NCBI GenBank assembly: GCA_963808905.1
Contig: CAWEHO010000003.1
Span: 155,755-219,754 of the forward strand
Reading direction: 5' to 3'
Length of the DNA stretch: 64,000 nucleotides
Origin: an uncultured Actinomycetota bacterium
Lineage (GTDB): Bacteria > Actinomycetota > Actinomycetes > Propionibacteriales > Propionibacteriaceae
The number at the start of each line of letters is the position of its first letter. The first letter of the stretch is position 1. The notes beneath the pieces were generated by a model. It did not search any database and was not told the origin of the DNA. It was given only the letters and a program-made list of their open reading frames with translations. The position numbers were made by a program, and so were the translations under genes. Below are positions 24,144-57,477 of the stretch, piece after piece.

Positions 24144-24180
24144 GCTGAGCCTGTCGAAGGCGCGGACTGACAAGCTCAGC
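24144..24180. repeat. REP-like hairpin between convergent genes (possible bidirectional terminator)
   Basis: GCTGAGCCTGTC (24144-24155) pairs with GACAAGCTCAGC (24169-24180); same family as the 26150 and 33086 copies. Confidence 0.7.
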
Positions 24181-26068: not shown

Positions 26069-26149
26069 TTGGCATCACCTACTGAGGTTCCGCGTCATCT
26101 CCAGATAATGCCAAGTCCACGTAAGAATAATGCGAAGTAAGAATGCGTC

Positions 26150-26187
26150 CTGAGCCCTTCGACAAGCTCAGGGCGGCGCCTGTCGAA
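26150..26187 (+). repeat. REP-like palindromic element
   Basis: CTGAGCCCTTCGACAAGCTCAGGGCGGCGCCTGTCGAA; 36/38 identical to the reverse complement of 33086-33123. Confidence 0.85.
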
Positions 26188-26201
26188 AGGCGCATCAAGC
26201 G

Positions 26202-28818: not shown

Positions 28819-30475
28819 GCTGGCTCCCCGCGGCTGGGGAACATTCCCTCGGGTGCACCCTTGCCATCCCAATTGAGCAAATTCACCCGGCCCTGGAGCT
28901 CCTCGCCGGAAACACTCACGTCCGATGTCTGCCGTTGCCGCAGCGCATGGAAGGTCTCGACGGCGACTGGGGACGGGCGGCCACTGGCTTCCCCGAAGGG
29001 TCCCTGCTCGTACGGCCCACCGTCGAAGTCGAGCGAGCAGCCGAGTTCCTCCAGCTCGTGGGCCTGCTCGACGTGGGCGGTGGGGATCACGTAGCGCTCG
29101 TGGTATTTCGCGATGGCCATCAAGCGGTACATCTCGCGCATGCTCTGGTCGGTCATGCCCACCGATGCAGCAATCGAATCGTCCTGTGGCTGATCCAGAG
29201 TGATGTTGCGCATATGCGCGCGCATGGCCGCCAAGATCGTCAGCACGCGCTCGATCTCGCCCACGTCCCCTGCGGTGAACAGCTCTGCCAGGTACTCCAG
29301 TGGAATCCGCAGTGCTCGAATGGCCCCGAACAGGACACCCGGTGATTCAGCCTCGTGGCCTTGATCACGAAGCAGATCGACGATCGGCGAAAGCGGCGGG
29401 ATGTACCAGACCATCGGCATCGTGCGATATTCCGGATGCAACGGAAGCGCGACCTTGTAGCTCTTGGCCAGTGCGTACACCGGCGAGCGACGTGCGGCAT
29501 CGAGCCAGTCGGCCGGGATGCCCTGCTGCCGAGCTGCAGCAACGACCTCGGATCATTGGGGATCCAAGATCAGATCCAGCTGCGCGGCGTACAGGTCCTT
29601 CACATCGGGTGTCCTGCGGCCGCGGTGGTGACCCGGTCGGCGTCATAGAGGAAGAGGCCGAGGTAGCGCAGCCGTCCGACGCAGGTCTCCGAGCACACCG
29701 TCGGCAGCCCGACCTCGATCCGCGGATAGCACAGCGTGCACTTCTCGGCCTTGCCCGTCTTGTGGTTGAAATAGATCTTCTTGTACGGACAGCCAGTCAC
29801 GCACTGCCGCCAACCACGGCAACGATCTTGGTCGACCAGCACGATGCCGTCCTCGGCCCGTTTGTAGATCGCACCCGAAGGGCAGGACGCCATGCACGAC
29901 GGGTTCAGGCAGTGCTCGCAGATCCGCGGCAGGTAGAACATAAAGGTCTGCTGGAAGTCGAACTTGATCTTCTCTTCGGACTGCTGCCGTACCCGCTGCA
30001 CGATCGGGTCGAGATGTCCCTGTTCGCTGACGCCGCCGAGGTTGTCGTCCCAGTTCGCCGACCAGGTGATCTTGGTGTCCTCGCCGGTGATCAACGACTT
30101 GGGCCGGGCCACCGGAAAGTCGTCACCAAGTGGTGCATCGATCAACGTCCGATAGTCGTACGTCCACGGCTCGTAGTAGTCCGCGAGTTTGGGTTGCACC
30201 GGGGAGGCGAAGATGCCTAGCAACTTGCGGACCCTGCCCCCGGCCTTGAGCTTCAGCCGGCCACGGCTGTTCAGCGTCCAGCCGCCCCGCCAGGCTTCCT
30301 GATCTTCGTAACGGCGCGGATAGCCCTGGCCGGGCCGGGTCTCCACATTGTTGAACCAGACGTACTCCGTGCCAGCCCGGTTGGTCCAGGCCTGCTTGCA
30401 GGTCACCGAACAGGTGTGGCAACCAATGCACTTGTCCAGGTTCATCACCATGCCCATCTGGGCCATGACGCGCAT
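28815..30475 (-). CDS. narH: Respiratory nitrate reductase beta subunit (apparent frameshift at ~29613)
   Basis: MVMNLDKCIGCHTC, CEHCLNPSC, CRGWRQC, KCTLCYP, then in the other frame ALPLHPEYRTMPMVWY. Confidence 0.93.
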
Positions 30476-33400
30476 CAGTACTGGACCTCCTGGGAGCGGC
30501 GCCGGATGGTGGAGACGATGTCTCGCTGGTTGCCCGTTGGGCCGAGGTAGTTGAACGCGTACGACAACTGGGCATATCCGCCGATCAGGTGAGTGGGCTT
30601 CACCAGCAGACGGGTCACCGAGTTGTGGATACCACCGCGACGACCGGTCGCCTCGGACTTCGGCACGTCGATGATCCGCTCCTGAGCGTGGTGGACGTAC
30701 ACCACGCCCTCCGGCATGCGGTGGCTGACGATGGCACGCCCCACCAGCACGCCGTTGGCGTTCACGCATTCCATCCAGTCGTTGTCCGCCACGCCGATCG
30801 CAGTGGCGTCCGCCGGGCTGAGCCAGATGGTTGGTCCGCCACGGGACAGCGACAGCATGAATAAGTTGTCCTGATATTCGGAGTGGATCGACCACTTCGA
30901 GTGAGGAGTCAGGTAGCGCACCGTCACTTGCTTGGCCCCGTCGGGGCCTAGAGTCGGCTCGCCGAACAGCCGGTGCATGTCGAGCGGTGGACGGTAGGTG
31001 GGCAGCGCCTCACCAAGATCACGCATCCAGTCATGATCAAGGAAGAAATGCATCCGGCCGGTCAGCGTATGCCAAGGCTTCAGACGCTCCACATTGACGG
31101 TGAACGGAGCATATCGGCGGCCGCCGGTCTCCGATCCCGACCACTCCGGCGATGTGATCACCGGAACCGGCGCCTGCTGGGTCTGGGCGAACGTGATCCT
31201 TTTCTCCTCCGACCCCTCAGCAAGATCAGCAAGGTGGACACCGGTGCGTTGCTCCAAGGATCTGAACCCTTGGACTGCCAGCTCGCCGTTGGTGGTACCG
31301 GAGAAGGTGAGAATGGCCTCGGCCATCTTGGCGTCAGTGTCTATGGCTGGTCGTCCATCGGCCGCACCGCCGAGCATCACACCACCCGAGGCCGCCAGTT
31401 GAGCCAGTTGCTGGTCCAGCCGGTAAGTGACGTTCTTCACCGTGAAGCCAAGCTTGTCCGCCAGCGGACCGACAGCGGCGAGCTTGTCGGCGATGGCGGT
31501 GTAATCGCGCTCGACGATCTGGAAGCTGGGCATCGTCGTACCCGGCATGCCTCTGACATCTCCGCGCTTCCAGTCACGGACGATCCCATTCGGCTGGGCG
31601 GTCTCGCCCGGGGTGTCGTGCTGCATCGGAACGGCGACCAGGTCGTGCCGGGTGCCCAGGTGCGTCTTCGCCTGACGAGAGAGTTCCCGGGCGATCAGGT
31701 GGAACATCTCGAAGTCGCTCTTCGCCTCCCACGGCGGGTCGATCGCCGGCGTGAACGCGTGCACGAAGGGATGCATGTCGGTGCTCGACAGGTCGTATTT
31801 CTCATACCAGGTGGCTGCCGGCAGCACGATGTCGGACAGCAGCGTCGTCGATGTCATCCGGAAGTCGGCCGACAACAACAAGTCGAGCTTGCCCTCCGGT
31901 GCCTCCTCTTGCCAGACGACGTCGCTTGGGCGTACATCGGTCGCTCCCTCTTCGGCCATCACGTTGGAGTGGGTGCCGAGCAGGTACTTGAGGAAGTACT
32001 CGTTGCCCTTGGCCGAGGAGCCGAACAAGTTGGAGCGCCACAAGGTCAGCGTCCGCGGCCAGTTCTCCGGTGCATCGACGTCCTCGATCGAGGCCTTGAT
32101 CGTGCCGGCTGCCAGCGCGTTTGCCACATAGGAGGCGGTGTCGGGAGCCGAGCCCGCAGCGACTGCAGCCTCGGCTTGGTCAGCGAGCTCCAGCGGGTTG
32201 ACATTGAACTGTGGATAGAACGGCATCCATCCCAGCCGCGCCGATTGAGCGATCGTGTCAGCAGTGTGCATGCCAGCCAAATGCCCCTCAGCCAGTGGAG
32301 AGGTGAGGGCGTCGGCCGCGTACCCGTCGAAGCGCCACTGATCGGTATGCATATACCAGTACGCGGTACCGATCATGGTCCGGGGAGGCCGCGACCAATC
32401 CAGCGCGTTGGCCAGCGAGATCCATCCGGTGATCGGCCGGCATTTCTCCTGTCCGACGTAGTGCGCCCAGCCGCCGCCGTTACGCCCCATGCTGCCGGTC
32501 AAGATCAACAGGCTCAGAATCGATCGATAGGTGGCATCAGCATGGAACCACTGGCAGATTCCGGCACCCATGATGATCATGGACCGGCCCTTGGATTGCT
32601 CCGCGTTGGTGGCGAATTCGCGGGCGATCCGGATGCATGCCTCGGCCGGCACGCTGGTGATCTCTGCCTGCCACGCGGGCGTGTAGGGAGCAGTCGAGTC
32701 GTCGTAGCCGGTAGGCCAGTCACCGGGCAGATCAGGCCGGGCGACTCCATAGTGGGCGAGCATGAGGTCGAACACTGTGGTGACGACGTGATCGCCGATC
32801 CTGAGAATCGGGACGCCGCGACGGAGCACGGACCCTGATCCGTCGGCCGCCTCAAAGCAGGGGAGCAGCACTTCGACGACCTCGTTTGTCGTCGACCTCG
32901 CGAATCGAGAGAGCCGGCGTCACGCCCCCGAGATCAAGATTCCAGCGACCAACGCCGGAGTCGGCGTAGCGGAACCCCATGGAACCGTTGGGAACTACCG
33001 GCTTGCCGCTGCCGGCGTCCAGCAATACCGTCTTCCACGCCGCTTCGGGCGGGGACTTGCGCTCGGAGTCCGCCAAAGAGCGCTCTTCGACAGGCGCCGT
33101 CCTGAGCTTGTCGAAGGGTTCAGAGTGCATCTCCAGATCGGCCGCGGTCAGGAACTTGCCAGGCACCAGGCCGCCGTGCTCGGCGTTCTCAGTCAGTGTG
33201 ATCAAGAAAGGCAGATCGGTGTAGGTCTTGACGAAGTCGGTGAAGAACGGCACCTGCCGGTCGAGGAAGAATTCCTTCAAGATCACGTGGCCCATCGCCA
33301 TGGCGAGAGCGGCATCCGTGCCGGCCTGAGCCGGCAACCATTCATCAGCGAACTTGGTGTTGTCGGCGTAGTCCGGGCTGACGGTGACGATCTTGGTGCC

Positions 33401-34258
33401 CCGATAGCGCACTTCGGCCATCCAGTGCGCATCGGGCGTTCGGGTGACGGGAACGTTGGAGCCCCACATCATCAAATAGGTGGCGTCCCACCAGTCACCG
33501 GATTCCGGCACGTCAGTTTGATCACCGAAGACCTGTGGACTGGCGACCGGCAGGTCGGCGTACCAGTCATAGAACGACGTCATTACTCCGCCGATGAGCT
33601 GGGTGAAGCGAGTCCCTACGCAGTGGGAGACCATCGACATCGCCGGGATGGGTGAGAAGCCGGCGATCCGATCCGGCCCGTATGTCTTGATCGTGTGTAC
33701 CTGGGCAGCAGCGATCATCTCCACCGCTTCGGCCCAGGACACGCGTACCAGCCCGCCCTTGCCGCGGGCCCGGTGATAGCGACGCCGACGTTCCGGATCG
33801 CCGACCACATCGGCCCAGGCCAGCACCGGGTCCTTCAGTCGCTGCTTGGCTTCGCGATACATCTCCAGCAGAACGCCGCGGGCGTACGGATACCTGACCC
33901 GAGTGGGCGAGTAGGTGTACCACGAGAAGGCGGCACCACGCGGGCAGCCGCGAGGCTCATACTCCGGTCGATCCGGACCGACGGACGGATAGTCGGTCTG
34001 CTGTGCTTCCCACGTGATGATGCCGTCGCGGACATAGATCTTCCAGGAGCAGGAACCTGTGCAATTCACACCATGAGTGGATCGCACCACCTTGTCGTGA
34101 CTCCACCGATCCCGATAGAACACATCGCCAGCCCGACCGCCCTGACGAAAAACCACCCGACCGTCCTCGGACTCCTCCCATCTGGTGAAGAACCGGCCTA
34201 GCTTCAACAGCGCCTCGGAGGCGCGCCCATCAACGCCGGCAGGGACCGGAGGATTCAT
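30475..34258 (-). CDS. narG: Respiratory nitrate reductase alpha subunit (apparent +1 frameshift at ~32886)
   Basis: STHGVNCTGSCSW, EPRGCPRGA, DWYADLP, HYVGQEK, LTPHSKWSIHS, NYLGPTGNQRD. Removing one A in an AAA run joins the two ORFs. Confidence 0.95.
33086..33123 (-). repeat. REP-like element inserted in frame in narG
   Basis: 36/38 identical to the intergenic copy at 26150-26187; translated as (S)EPFDKLRTAPVE in NarG. Confidence 0.85.
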
Positions 34259-44351: not shown

Positions 44352-45250
44352 TGACCAACGAACCACGCAACGGAGATATTGACGTGCCCGACGAACCGCA
44401 GCAGGATGCAGAGGCGCTGGAAACTCTCGCATCTTCGTCATCCGCCGAGACACCGGAGGACGACTTCGATATCGACTTGGGCAGTTACCCAGCGAGCCGG
44501 GAGGACGAGGTCGATATCAACCTCGACTTCGGCGGGGCCCCTGCCGAGCGTCCTCAGGACGACTTCGGGATCGATTTCGGCCTCGCAGAGACAGCGGAGG
44601 AGCCGGAGGCGGCCGAGGCTGAGCCTGAGGAGGAGACCGAAGCGGGTCACGACGCGCTCGAGGCGTTCCGTTCGGATCTGAGGTCCAAGCCAGGGGATTG
44701 GTACGTCGTACACACCTACTCCGGCATGGAGAACCGGGTACTGCAGAACCTGGAGAACCGAGTGTCCTCTCTCAACATGGAGGACTACATCTACGAGATC
44801 ATCGTGCCGACCGAAGAAGTCACCGAGATCCGCAACGGCCAGCGCAAGCAGGTGAGGCGTACGGTGCTCCCAGGCTACGTGCTGGTGCGTATGGATCTCA
44901 CTGACGAGTCCTGGTCGACAGTGCGTCATACCCCCTCGGTCACCGGTTTCGTCGGCCATTCCAACTCTCCGGTGGCGCTCAGCCTTGACGAGGTGGAGAA
45001 GATGTTGGCGCCTGCTGTCGTTGCTGCGGCGACGGCGTCCAGCGAAGGCCCCACCCGTCGTAAGAAGAAGGTCGAGGTCGCCGACTTCGTTGTCGGGGAC
45101 TCGGTCATGGTGGTCGACGGACCGTTCGCGGGGGTTCACGCAACCATTACTGAGATCAACGTGAACAATCAGCGTCTCAAGGCCCTTGTGGAGATCCTGG
45201 GCCGGGAGACTCCAGTCGATCTGACCTTCCCACAGATTCAGAAAGTCTGA
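44351..45250 (+). CDS. nusG: Transcription termination/antitermination factor NusG with acidic N-terminal extension
   Basis: [35 protein letters not shown] domain [14 protein letters not shown]. Confidence 0.96.
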
Positions 45251-49569: not shown

Positions 49570-50358
49570 ATGGCGAGGTCGGACAAGGTAGCGGCCGTCG
49601 CTGAGCTGGCCAACAGATTCTCCAGCTCGGCCGGCGTCGTGTTGACCGAGTATCGCGGACTCTCGGTGAAGGCACTCAAGGATCTGCGCCGCTCTCTCGG
49701 ACATGACGCCAGCTACGCGGTCTCGAAGAACACGCTGACGACAATCGCTGCCCGTGAGGCCGGCGTCGACGGGATCGAACAGCATCTCGTCGGGCCGACG
49801 GCGATTGCCTTCATCGATGGCGATCCCGTCGTTGTGGCCAAAGGTCTGCGCGATTTCGCGCGGACAAATCCGCAACTCGTGATCAAGGGCGGGGTGCTGG
49901 ACGGCAAGTTCATGACCCCCGATGAAGTCAGAAAACTGGCGGATCTCGAGTCGCGCGAGGTTCTGCTCGCCAAGGTCGCTGGCGCCATGCAAGGCGTCCT
50001 TCAGCAGGCCATCTCGCTGGTATCCGCACCGCTCTCCCAGGCTGCTCGGCTGTTTGCCGCCCTGGAAAAGGCGGCTGCCGAGAATCCGTCGCTCCTCGCC
50101 AGCGGGCCAGAGACGACCTCGGAGCCGACCGATGAGGAACTCGCCCCCGAAGCCACTGGCGAGCCGACGAACGAGGGGCTCGCGGCCGAAGCGGCCCCTG
50201 GGCCAACGAATGAAGAACCCGGCGTCGAGACGATCTCGGAGCCGACCAACGAAGAACTCGCCGCTGAAGCGGCGCCATCTGCAGCGTCAGCTGCACCTGA
50301 AGCGGGCACCACGCCCGCGGCAGAACCACTGGCAGCACCCGCTGCGGACGACAACTAG
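49570..50358 (+). CDS. rplJ: 50S ribosomal protein L10 with repeat-containing acidic C-terminal extension
   Basis: GGAGG RBS; [33 protein letters not shown]; extra ~85 aa tail. Confidence 0.96.
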
Positions 50359-57411: not shown

Positions 57412-57477
57412 GCCTCTCCGACTTGTCAGCGTCTCAACGGGCTATAGCCCTCTGAAACGCTGACAAGTCGGCGGAGG
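57412..57477. other. Long hairpin in the rpoB-rpoC intergenic region
   Basis: CCGACTTGTCAGCGT (57418-57432) pairs perfectly with 57457-57471; inner palindrome GGGCTATAGCCC at 57439-57450. Confidence 0.85.

What the first reader, a model, noticed from the sequence alone, without database searches (positions are those of the whole stretch)
33060..33135. Palindromic REP-like element domesticated in frame inside narG
Seen: 33086-33123 is 36/38 identical (reverse complement) to the intergenic element at 26150-26187 and keeps the NarG frame, giving ...DLEMHSEPFDKLRTAPVEERSLADSERKSPPEAAWKTV. On the + strand it reads CGTC-CTGAGCTTGTCGAAGG. Established: CGTC-tagged palindromic repeats are a described REP class, and in-frame palindrome insertions in proteins are known (Rickettsia RPEs). 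Inference: the stretch between FLTAADL and AAWKTVLLD looks ~20 aa longer than in typical NarG, so the repeat created a new surface loop in a molybdoenzyme.
Basis: partly seen in the sequence, partly recalled or inferred. Interest (0 to 1): 0.66.

Follow-up and report, generated by a model that had tools for sequence, protein, structure and literature searches.

The report
Hairpin repeat nested inside NarG loop
A small, selfish hairpin DNA repeat sits in reading frame in a floppy loop of the nitrate reductase gene. Sister species show that it arrived in two steps, so it looks like a tolerated passenger and not a newly recruited protein part.

Summary
Window 33086-33123 (-) matches 26150-26187 (+) at 36/38, and the repeat core occurs about 95-125 times in this genome.

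The narG copy has two layers.
- An old, decayed 51-nt palindrome is shared at the same loop with sister species G277, G003 and G269.
- A young, consensus-perfect 24-nt module (33094-33117, PFDKLRTA) is found only in this genome. It produces a "Type II" arrangement that also occurs at 7 other sites here and in 51 loci of other genomes.

The same NarG loop carries other arrangements of the repeat, in another frame, in G016, G015, G022 and G193. Most of the family has a loop of 6-11 residues.

No RAYT is present. In 16 of 16 loci examined in genus relatives, a roughly 95-aa GIY-YIG nuclease gene lies between inverted copies of the repeat, as in Ssn systems. This genome lacks that gene, and the repeat does not fit the published SRM motif.

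Three more in-frame copies exist in this genome, in LigD, a GH2 beta-galactosidase and a CcsA-like protein.

"Domesticated" is not supported. The peptide is not conserved, copies decay or are deleted in sister species, and narG and narH carry frameshifts in this assembly.

The parts
33056..33130 (-). Whole repeat-derived insert in narG. It is 75 nt and encodes MHSEPFDKLRTAPVEERSLADSERK. On the coding strand it runs ATGCAC-CTGAAC / 24-nt module / CTGTCGAAGA-GCGC-decayed arm2-CGCAAG.
   Evidence: Orthologues G217, G261, G254, G275, G007 and others lack it.
33094..33117 (-). Young 24-nt module specific to this genome, CCTTCGACAAGCTCAGGACGGCGC (PFDKLRTA). It is nested between CTGAAC and CTGTCGAAG of the older palindrome. 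The position is ambiguous by +/-1 nt.
   Evidence: In the 5' 2.85 kb of narG compared with G277, it is one of only two indels (the other is the 1-nt frameshift). Its core matches the consensus 17/17, whereas the resident arm2 has decayed.
33056..33093 (-). 3' part of the older 51-nt 'Type I' palindrome (b arm, GCGC loop, decayed arm2, CGCAAG end). It is shared with G277, G003 and G269.
33118..33130 (-). 5' end of the older palindrome (ATGCACTCTGAAC), shared with G277 (ATGCGCTCTGAAC).
32852..34258 (-). narG N-terminal ORF (468 aa). It ends at a stop created by the frameshift.
   Evidence: It matches E. coli NarG 1Q16 at E 1e-147.
30475..32871 (-). narG C-terminal ORF (798 aa) in the +1 frame.
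   Evidence: It is 97% identical to residues 458-1260 of G277 NarG.
32884..32890 (-). Frameshift site in narG: GACGACAAACGAG here against GACGAC-GACGAG in G277 and G003.
26143..26193 (+). Intergenic 'Type II' copy between the narK-like MFS gene and the GDPD gene. It is absent at this site in G277.
   Evidence: As DNA it folds at -16.5 kcal/mol, z -3.5.
24144..24161 (-). Weak third copy (3 mismatches) between the convergent lysX-like and GDPD genes.

Best explanation
The stretch is a copy of a high-copy hairpin repeat family with arms CTGAGCYTGTCGAAGG and CCTTCGACARGCTCAGG. In related species these arms form the inverted ends around a small single-domain GIY-YIG nuclease gene. The short copies are therefore MITE-like, nuclease-less derivatives of an Ssn-like element.

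Shown:
- A 51-nt palindromic copy entered a length-tolerant loop of NarG, equivalent to E. coli residues ~363-372, in the ancestor of a species clade. It has been decaying there, or was deleted, ever since.
- In this genome alone, exactly one 24-nt module was added inside the left arm of the resident copy. The result is the 'Type II' arrangement CTGAGC-(24 nt)-CTGTCGAAGG, which is a dispersed sub-type in its own right.

Inferred:
- The module was copied from another Type II copy by short-patch ectopic templated repair or template switching at the resident hairpin, or by a nuclease-driven homing-like step.
- It cannot be a local duplication. The resident right arm has decayed, while the new module matches the consensus perfectly.
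- The frame is kept because the module is 24 nt long and because only 3n-length variants survive inside genes.
- The peptide is a tolerated passenger, not a recruited functional part.
For: Repeat status: 21 exact copies and 125 at <=3 mismatches in this genome. Across the genus the core count runs from 0 to more than 500 per genome, with controls at 0.

Two layers: G277 (NarG 96% identical, intact at 1260 aa) has ATGCGCTCTGAAC|CTGCCGAAGGGCGCTCTTTGACGGGCTCCGAGCGCAAG at the same site. This genome equals that sequence plus 24 nt. G003 and G269 share the 51-nt form, and G278 keeps only its ends. The tree places these genomes in one clade.

Relative age: the module core is 17/17 consensus, while the older parts fold no better than shuffled sequence (z -0.8 and -1.7). 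G193's NarG copy is a perfect 26-bp hairpin (-38 kcal/mol, z -13).

Type II is a real sub-type: 8 copies here against 0 in the control, 51 loci elsewhere, and 2-3 tandem modules at the same position in L128, L133, L136 and L161.

Recent activity in this lineage: a clean 45-nt Type II insertion in a GH2 gene is absent from four relatives, and at the recR-downstream site this genome has Type II where G278 has Type I.

Nuclease link: 16 of 16 small GIY-YIG loci are flanked by inverted cores, against 0 of 8 UvrC control loci. All 17 carrier genomes have >=58 cores, and none of 86 low-copy genomes carries the gene (Fisher p 2e-10).

Frame filter: intragenic units are 21, 24 or 45 nt. Of 11 intergenic array spacings (22-68 nt), only two are multiples of 3.

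Not conserved as a peptide: MHSEPFDKLRTAPVEERSLADSERK, MRSEPAEGRSLTGSERK, TRPEIVEGRSSTGSERN and RSSRGAGGRSSTNSENN.
Against: - This genome (93% complete) has no small GIY-YIG gene and no RAYT, so nothing present can be named as the agent of the recent events.
- The polarity of the 24-nt event rests on parsimony, with G269 as outgroup, in a tree whose basal node is a polytomy.
No independent assembly holds the junction. The insertion therefore rests on one MAG assembly.
- That assembly also shows 1-nt indels in narG, narH and ligD.
- Surface exposure of the loop is inferred from length variation only; the AF2 model was unusable.
Confidence: 0.78

Rival explanations
1. Domesticated loop: the repeat-derived peptide has been recruited for a NarG function such as partner binding, membrane contact or regulation, and is kept by selection.
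For: Inserts persist in frame in intact NarG genes of several species: G277 1260 aa, G269 1254, G016 1266, G015 1252, G193 1278. The site is occupied in two clades.
Against: The peptide sequence and even the reading frame differ between species (PFDKLR, PSTGSGH, PEIVEGR). Copies decay or are deleted in G278, G018 and G268. Most genus and family members have 6-12 residues at this loop. In this genome narG and narH are frameshifted as assembled.
Confidence: 0.06
2. The Type II form is ancestral at this site, and G277/G003 lost the 24-nt module by slippage. On this reading there was no recent gain in this genome.
For: Tandem 24-nt modules with n = 1-3 exist elsewhere, so contraction is mechanically easy. 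A gain in this genome and a loss in the G003+G277 ancestor each cost one step within the trio.
Against: G269 has the module-less 51-nt form. The module is consensus-perfect, while the flanking parts of the same element have decayed. Other Type II events specific to this genome exist.
Confidence: 0.1
3. Assembly or polishing artefact: the 24 nt, or the whole junction, came from mis-placed repeat reads in a metagenome-assembled genome.
For: The genome is a 31-contig MAG. It shows 1-nt indels in narG, narH and ligD.
Against: The insertion is exactly one module at the canonical module position and keeps the frame. The same architecture occurs at 7 other sites here and in 51 foreign loci. rpoB, rpoC and other long ORFs in the window are intact.
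Confidence: 0.05

Closest known systems
Ssn nucleases with NTS/SRM hairpin repeats (SsnA of Neisseria meningitidis; Chenal et al. 2025, PMC11893778)
   Same: A small single-domain GIY-YIG gene of about 95 aa is bracketed by inverted copies of a 20-50-nt hairpin repeat that is present in tens to hundreds of copies. The nuclease is found only in repeat-rich genomes, and many repeat-rich genomes lack it. The repeats are mostly extragenic.
   Different: The repeat sequence differs and does not fit the published SRM search motif (0 of 95 cores). The CGTC tag occurs only in the Type II sub-type. The host is an actinobacterial genus. The nuclease's nearest solved relatives are UPF0213 proteins (1ZG2, E 1e-10), and cd10448 membership could not be tested. 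This genome has no nuclease gene. No cleavage data exist.
Rickettsia palindromic elements (RPEs) inserted in frame in protein genes (reviewed in PMC10969869)
   Same: A palindromic repeat is inserted in frame in unrelated housekeeping and metabolic genes, adding a peptide in loops or linkers without destroying the fold. Here the hosts are NarG, LigD, a GH2 beta-galactosidase and a CcsA-like protein.
   Different: The units are much shorter (24-75 nt against about 150 bp). Different reading frames are used at the same site in different species. There is nesting and tandem 21/24-nt modules, and the host phylum differs. The family is linked here to a GIY-YIG gene.
REP/BIME elements with RAYT (Y1) transposases
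   Same: Short imperfect palindromes in high copy, clustered in arrays at gene ends.
   Different: There is no Y1_Tnp gene in this genome. The associated enzyme in relatives is a GIY-YIG nuclease.
MITEs (non-autonomous derivatives of IS elements)
   Same: The short copies equal the two terminal inverted arms of a longer enzyme-bearing unit with the interior missing.
   Different: No transposase is present. A target-site duplication is not established; a possible GACGG at the GH2 site remains ambiguous.

Membership tests
Ssn / SRM system (Chenal 2025) | Small single-domain GIY-YIG nuclease (cd10448, ~94 aa) encoded in the genome | tested here: not met
   This genome has only two GIY-YIG hits, both in 734- and 622-aa frames. 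tblastn with five small GIY-YIG proteins from the genus gave a best E of 0.07. Seventeen relatives do carry a 93-105-aa gene. cd10448 assignment is not testable here; the nearest solved structures are UPF0213 proteins 1ZG2 and 1YWL.
Ssn / SRM system (Chenal 2025) | Nuclease gene flanked on both sides by its hairpin repeat | tested here: met
   All 16 small GIY-YIG loci examined in relatives have '-' cores upstream and '+' cores downstream. None of 8 UvrC-type control loci do.
Ssn / SRM system (Chenal 2025) | Repeat fits the SRM search sequence HGTCWYN(0-2)YYVSBRHN(0-5)WNVSBRGN(0-2)RNCYNB | tested here: not met
   32 hits against 26 in the reversed-genome control. None of 95 repeat cores lies within 40 nt of a hit.
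Ssn / SRM system (Chenal 2025) | Nuclease presence goes with high repeat number | tested here: met
   All 17 carriers fall among the 40 genomes with >=58 exact cores, and none among 86 genomes with fewer (Fisher p 1.9e-10).
Ssn / SRM system (Chenal 2025) | Site-specific cleavage of single-stranded DNA next to the motif | not testable with these tools
   This needs the purified enzyme and oligonucleotide substrates.
REP / RAYT | Y1 (IS200/IS605-like) RAYT transposase in the genome | tested here: not met
   PF01797 gave no match in this genome; the positive controls matched in 6 genomes.
RPE-like in-frame palindromic insertion | Member of a multi-copy palindromic family, inserted without breaking the host reading frame, with insert-free orthologues | tested here: met
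   The insert is 75 nt, made of 51 + 24. Caveat: the host gene has an unrelated frameshift 77 codons downstream in this assembly.
RPE-like in-frame palindromic insertion | Insert lies at a structurally permissive surface position | tested here: inconclusive
   The loop varies from 6 to 41 residues among about 60 orthologues and aligns to E. coli NarG ~363-372. The AF2 model of residues 1-468 was unusable, with pLDDT 35.
MITE | Terminal inverted repeats matching those of an enzyme-bearing parent, plus a target-site duplication | tested here: inconclusive
   The arms match the flanks of the GIY-YIG genes. A duplication is not clear at the one clean empty-site comparison, the GH2 gene.

The most novel reading that the evidence does not exclude
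Resident hairpin copies act as landing pads. A GIY-YIG (Ssn-like) nuclease, or hairpin-induced breakage, triggers short-patch copying from other family members. Permissive protein loops such as the NarG loop and the LigD linker are then re-hit and remodelled repeatedly, in 21/24-nt steps. The G277-versus-this-genome pair would be a natural before/after snapshot of how this widespread and mechanistically unexplained class of repeats spreads. It would also be a source of protein length polymorphism in core enzymes.
Probability: 0.3. Interest if true: 0.75.

Novelty: new variant of a known kind. Interest (0 to 1): 0.55.

Why it matters
In-frame palindromic insertions are textbook only for Rickettsia. 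How Ssn-type hairpin repeats multiply is unknown.

This case offers three things.
- An actinobacterial genus in which a distinct repeat/GIY-YIG pair shows the same gene architecture.
- Orthologous sites that capture single steps: a 24-nt gain in narG, a 45-nt gain in a GH2 gene, and a Type I/Type II swap downstream of recR.
- Two protein sites, the NarG loop and the LigD linker, that carry different versions of the repeat in different species.

Together these give concrete substrates and junctions for testing the copying mechanism. They also mark positions in NarG and LigD that tolerate insertions of up to about 35 residues.

The find is moderate, not large. The kind of event is known, and no function of the peptide is indicated.

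Tried and rejected
- **Replichore polarity.** A first listing seemed to show all '+' copies over half of complete genomes. The full listing for G100 shows mixed strands, so the pattern was an artefact of how matches were listed.
- **RAYT.** None found.
- **Published SRM motif.** No enrichment and no overlap with the repeat cores.
- **Rfam on the intergenic copy.** Only chance-level snoRNA hits.
- **AF2 model of NarG 1-468 with a 24-row alignment.** Mean pLDDT 35, unusable for mapping the loop.
- **Independent assemblies.** The exact protein look-up and two exact junction scans found nothing.
- **grpE tail copy as a fifth in-frame case.** grpE stops just before the repeat, so this was rejected.
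- **Local duplication as the source of the 24 nt.** Rejected because the resident arm2 has decayed while the module is consensus-perfect.
- **First in-frame screen.** It was too strict and missed ligD and the GH2 gene. I redid it with looser GC3 limits and checked the hits against Pfam.
- **Literature search for this repeat family.** It gave nothing beyond the Ssn paper and a MITE review.
Full report
**1. Observation**

The match extends to 51 nt at 86% (33080-33130 against 26143-26193). The 18-nt core CCCTTCGACAAGCTCAGG occurs exactly at both places. A 3-mismatch copy lies at 24144-24161, where 0.05 matches are expected by chance.

The stretch lies inside narG on the minus strand and keeps its frame...GKFLTAADLEMHSEPFDKLRTAPVEERSLADSERKSPPEAAWKTV. 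The 468-aa N-terminal product matches E. coli NarG (1Q16) at E 1e-147. The loop aligns to E. coli residues ~363-372, where E. coli has 10-12 residues.

**2. It is a real repeat family**

The window's genome is 4.23 Mb in 31 contigs, 64% GC, and 93% complete. It holds 21 exact copies of the core and 125 copies at <=3 mismatches. A 17-nt version gives 168 hits at <=3 mismatches, against 26 in a reversed-genome control.

Across the 126 species of the genus, the exact 17-mer count runs from 0 to more than 500 per genome. Control counts are 0 everywhere.

The usual unit, which I call "Type I", is a palindrome: ATGCGC-CCTGAGC-CTGTCGAAGG-loop-CCTTCGACAG-GCTCAGG-GCGCAT. It is often followed by partial tandem units.

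**3. Comparison with orthologues: two layers**

I collected NarG from 48 genus members and 84 family members.

- Most of the family has 6-11 residues between AADL and (A/F)(W/F)KTV, for example PEHASLTDA.
- The closest relative, G277 (96% aa identity, intact 1260-aa frame), reads at this site GAG|ATGCGCTCTGAAC|CTGCCGAAGGGCGCTCTTTGACGGGCTCCGAGCGCAAG|TCCCCG. This is a 51-nt decayed palindrome encoding MRSEPAEGRSLTGSERK.
- This genome is identical in layout except for exactly 24 extra bases, CCTTCGACAAGCTCAGGACGGCGC (window 33094-33117). They lie between CTGAAC and CTGTCGAAG.
- Over the 5' 2.85 kb of narG that I compared, this is one of only two indels. The other is a 1-nt frameshift.
- G003 (TRPEIVEGRSSTGSERN) and G269 (RSSRGAGGRSSTNSENN) share the 51-nt form.
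- G278 keeps only the two ends (EMGPERK), and G018 keeps a degenerate left arm.

A maximum-likelihood tree of flanking narG sequence puts these genomes in one clade with 100/100 support, arranged as (G278,(own,(G003,G277))). G269 sits at the clade's unresolved base. The 51-nt element is therefore old in this clade, and the 24-nt module is most simply a gain in this lineage.

Relative ages agree with this reading.
- The module's core is 17/17 consensus.
- The resident right arm (TCTTTGGCGGACTCCGAG) has decayed.
- The older elements fold no better than shuffled sequence (z -0.8 for this genome, -1.7 for G277).

For the same reason the module cannot be a local duplication of the resident arm. Its template must have been another copy.

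**4. The same loop in other species**

A second clade carries other arrangements on the same strand but in another reading frame.
- G016: GPSTGSGHGDSTGSEHEQTRPEPVEGP
- G015: RPSTGSGHSPSTSSD
- G022: DPSTGSGHMAGGSGHMAGGSGQ
- G193: RPEPVEGQEQGPSTGSGRTGGGSGQ

G193's copy is a perfect 26-bp hairpin (-38.3 kcal/mol, z -13) inside an intact 1278-aa frame. G022 and G193 share their right junction, and G268 looks like a remnant.

I cannot decide between two readings: several independent hits, or one ancient resident copy that is repeatedly rebuilt. Either way the site has been occupied or re-hit over a long time. All genomes with a recognisable NarG copy hold 44-170 cores, while many genomes without one hold none.

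**5. The "Type II" sub-type**

The arrangement created in narG is CTGAGC-(CCTTCGACAAGCTCAGGACGGCGC)-CTGTCGAAGG-GCGC.

- It occurs at 8 places in this genome, against 0 in the control. One is the intergenic copy at 26143-26193, which G277 lacks.
- The best match to the narG copy is C19:28927 at 38/39. The neighbouring copy in the window matches at 36/39.
- The exact 33-mer occurs in 51 loci of other genomes. These are mostly Propionibacteriaceae or "Actinomycetota" MAGs. They also include Anaerolineae MAGs, an alphaproteobacterial MAG, and a 32%-GC contig of Aquimarina litoralis.
- In four of these loci, 2 or 3 tandem modules sit at the same position. So the 24-nt module is a repeatable unit with a defined insertion point.

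Orthologous-site comparisons with G277, G003, G278 and G269 show further recent events in this lineage.
- A clean 45-nt Type II insertion in a GH2 beta-galactosidase gene is absent from all four relatives.
- At the site downstream of recR, this genome has Type II where G278 has Type I.

**6. Linked enzyme**

There is no Y1/RAYT transposase in this genome.

Earlier notes of this scan pointed me to GIY-YIG/Ssn systems (Chenal et al. 2025, PMC11893778). I tested that lead here.

- This genome has only two large GIY-YIG-containing frames. tblastn finds no small one (best E 0.07).
- In the genus, 17 genomes carry a 93-105-aa single-domain GIY-YIG gene.
- In all 16 loci I examined, arm1 units lie upstream and arm2 units downstream of the gene, so the gene sits in the "loop" of a giant copy of the repeat. 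None of 8 UvrC-type control loci has any core.
- All 17 carriers are among the 40 genomes with >=58 cores, and none of the 86 others is a carrier (p 1.9e-10).
- G269, inside the NarG-insert clade, has such a gene, possibly frameshifted.

This is the NTS-ssnA-NTS architecture. The short palindromes look like MITE-like derivatives of it.

Membership in the published family is not established.
- The SRM search motif is not enriched (32 against 26) and overlaps none of the 95 cores.
- The CGTC tag is present only in the Type II sub-type, about 8-10 of 95 copies.
- The nuclease's nearest solved relatives are UPF0213 proteins (1ZG2, E 1e-10).
- cd10448 assignment could not be tested.

**7. Other in-frame copies**

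A screen of all cores for spanning coding-like ORFs, checked against Pfam, found three more.
- **LigD:** in the linker between the phosphoesterase and ligase domains (EPFDKVRTAPVEGR, the same frame as in NarG). All five genomes compared carry different arrays there, with 24-nt periods in G269 and G003.
- **GH2 beta-galactosidase:** between domain 4 and the small-chain domain.
- **CcsA-like protein:** in the N-terminal loop.

A copy next to grpE is not in frame.

Intragenic units are 21, 24 or 45 nt. Of 11 intergenic array spacings (22, 31, 35, 38, 39, 43, 44, 44, 62, 63, 68), only two are multiples of 3. That fits a selective filter for frame-preserving variants. Four of the six frames of the Type II unit are open.

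**8. Is it domesticated?**

Nothing supports that.
- The peptides differ between species and use different frames.
- Copies decay and are deleted.
- Most relatives do without an insert.

In this assembly narG is split by a +1 shift at 32884-32890 (GACGACAAACGAG against GACGAC-GACGAG). narH has three 1-nt indels within about 90 nt, consistently against six relatives. narI is full length.

rpoB, rpoC and other long ORFs in the window are intact. No other gene in the 36 kb compared with G277 is split. However, ligD elsewhere is also shifted, and several related MAGs show splits in the nar genes.

Whether the operon has recently died here or the consensus is locally wrong cannot be settled without reads.

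**9. Mechanism**

Shown: the layered structure, the ectopic origin of the module, the fixed insertion point, the recent activity of Type II in this lineage, and the nuclease-repeat linkage in relatives.

Inferred: the hairpin at the resident copy was broken or stalled. It was then repaired by short-patch copying from a Type II copy, using about 13-nt and 14-nt homologies on the two sides. This may have been promoted by a GIY-YIG nuclease that has since been lost or lies in the missing 7% of the assembly. The published Ssn enzyme cuts single-stranded DNA a few bases 5' of its hairpin, which makes such a role plausible but is not evidence for it here.

**10. Verdict**

This is a new variant of a known kind: RPE-like in-frame insertion by an Ssn-like repeat family. 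Its value lies in the step-by-step orthologous comparisons. No function of the peptide is indicated.

Noticed in passing
window 32884-32890 (narG); ~29615 and ~29550-29560 (narH): narG carries a +1 frameshift. narH carries three 1-nt indels within about 90 nt relative to six relatives. narI is intact. This is either recent decay of the nar operon or local consensus errors.
   Followed up: partly
genome contig C16:56472-56510 (outside the window): A Type II copy lies in frame in the LigD linker between the phosphoesterase and ligase domains. The same linker holds different repeat arrays in G277, G003, G278 and G269. This genome's ligD also has a frameshift further downstream.
   Followed up: partly
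genome contig C19:61630-61668 (outside the window): A clean 45-nt Type II insertion, specific to this genome, lies in frame between domain 4 and the small-chain domain of a GH2 beta-galactosidase. A GACGG target duplication is possible.
   Followed up: partly
genome contig C19:82491-82507 (outside the window): A repeat-derived peptide, GMRPELVDGRDQPSSSAENH, lies in the N-terminal loop of a CcsA/ResC-like cytochrome c assembly protein.
   Followed up: partly
L129 (Aquimarina litoralis contig), L137, L153, L158 (Anaerolineae MAGs), L132 (alphaproteobacterial MAG): The 33-nt Type II core is identical across phyla, including inside a 32%-GC Bacteroidota contig. That suggests horizontal spread of the element, or contamination of those assemblies.
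   Followed up: no
L082-L095, L183, about 60-90 nt upstream of the small GIY-YIG start codons: A conserved GTCCACAG-like box lies between the upstream repeat arm and the nuclease gene. It may be a promoter or operator.
   Followed up: no
L022 (G176, another genus of the family): The NarG loop AGVSTSSTSEAEGSTGEKPDNA contains TCGACAAGCTC. This may be a decayed copy of the same repeat at the same site in another genus.
   Followed up: no
window 57418-57471: A near-perfect palindrome with adjacent 27-nt arms (89%) lies in the rpoB-rpoC spacer.
   Followed up: no
window 50110-50270 and 44444-44581: Tandem repeats with 39-nt and roughly 45-54-nt periods; a coding context was not checked.
   Followed up: no
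L183 (G269:C1:274900-277200): The small GIY-YIG gene of G269 appears to have a 1-nt shift right after its ATG (MPWIYI|...). It is either a pseudogene or an assembly error.
   Followed up: no
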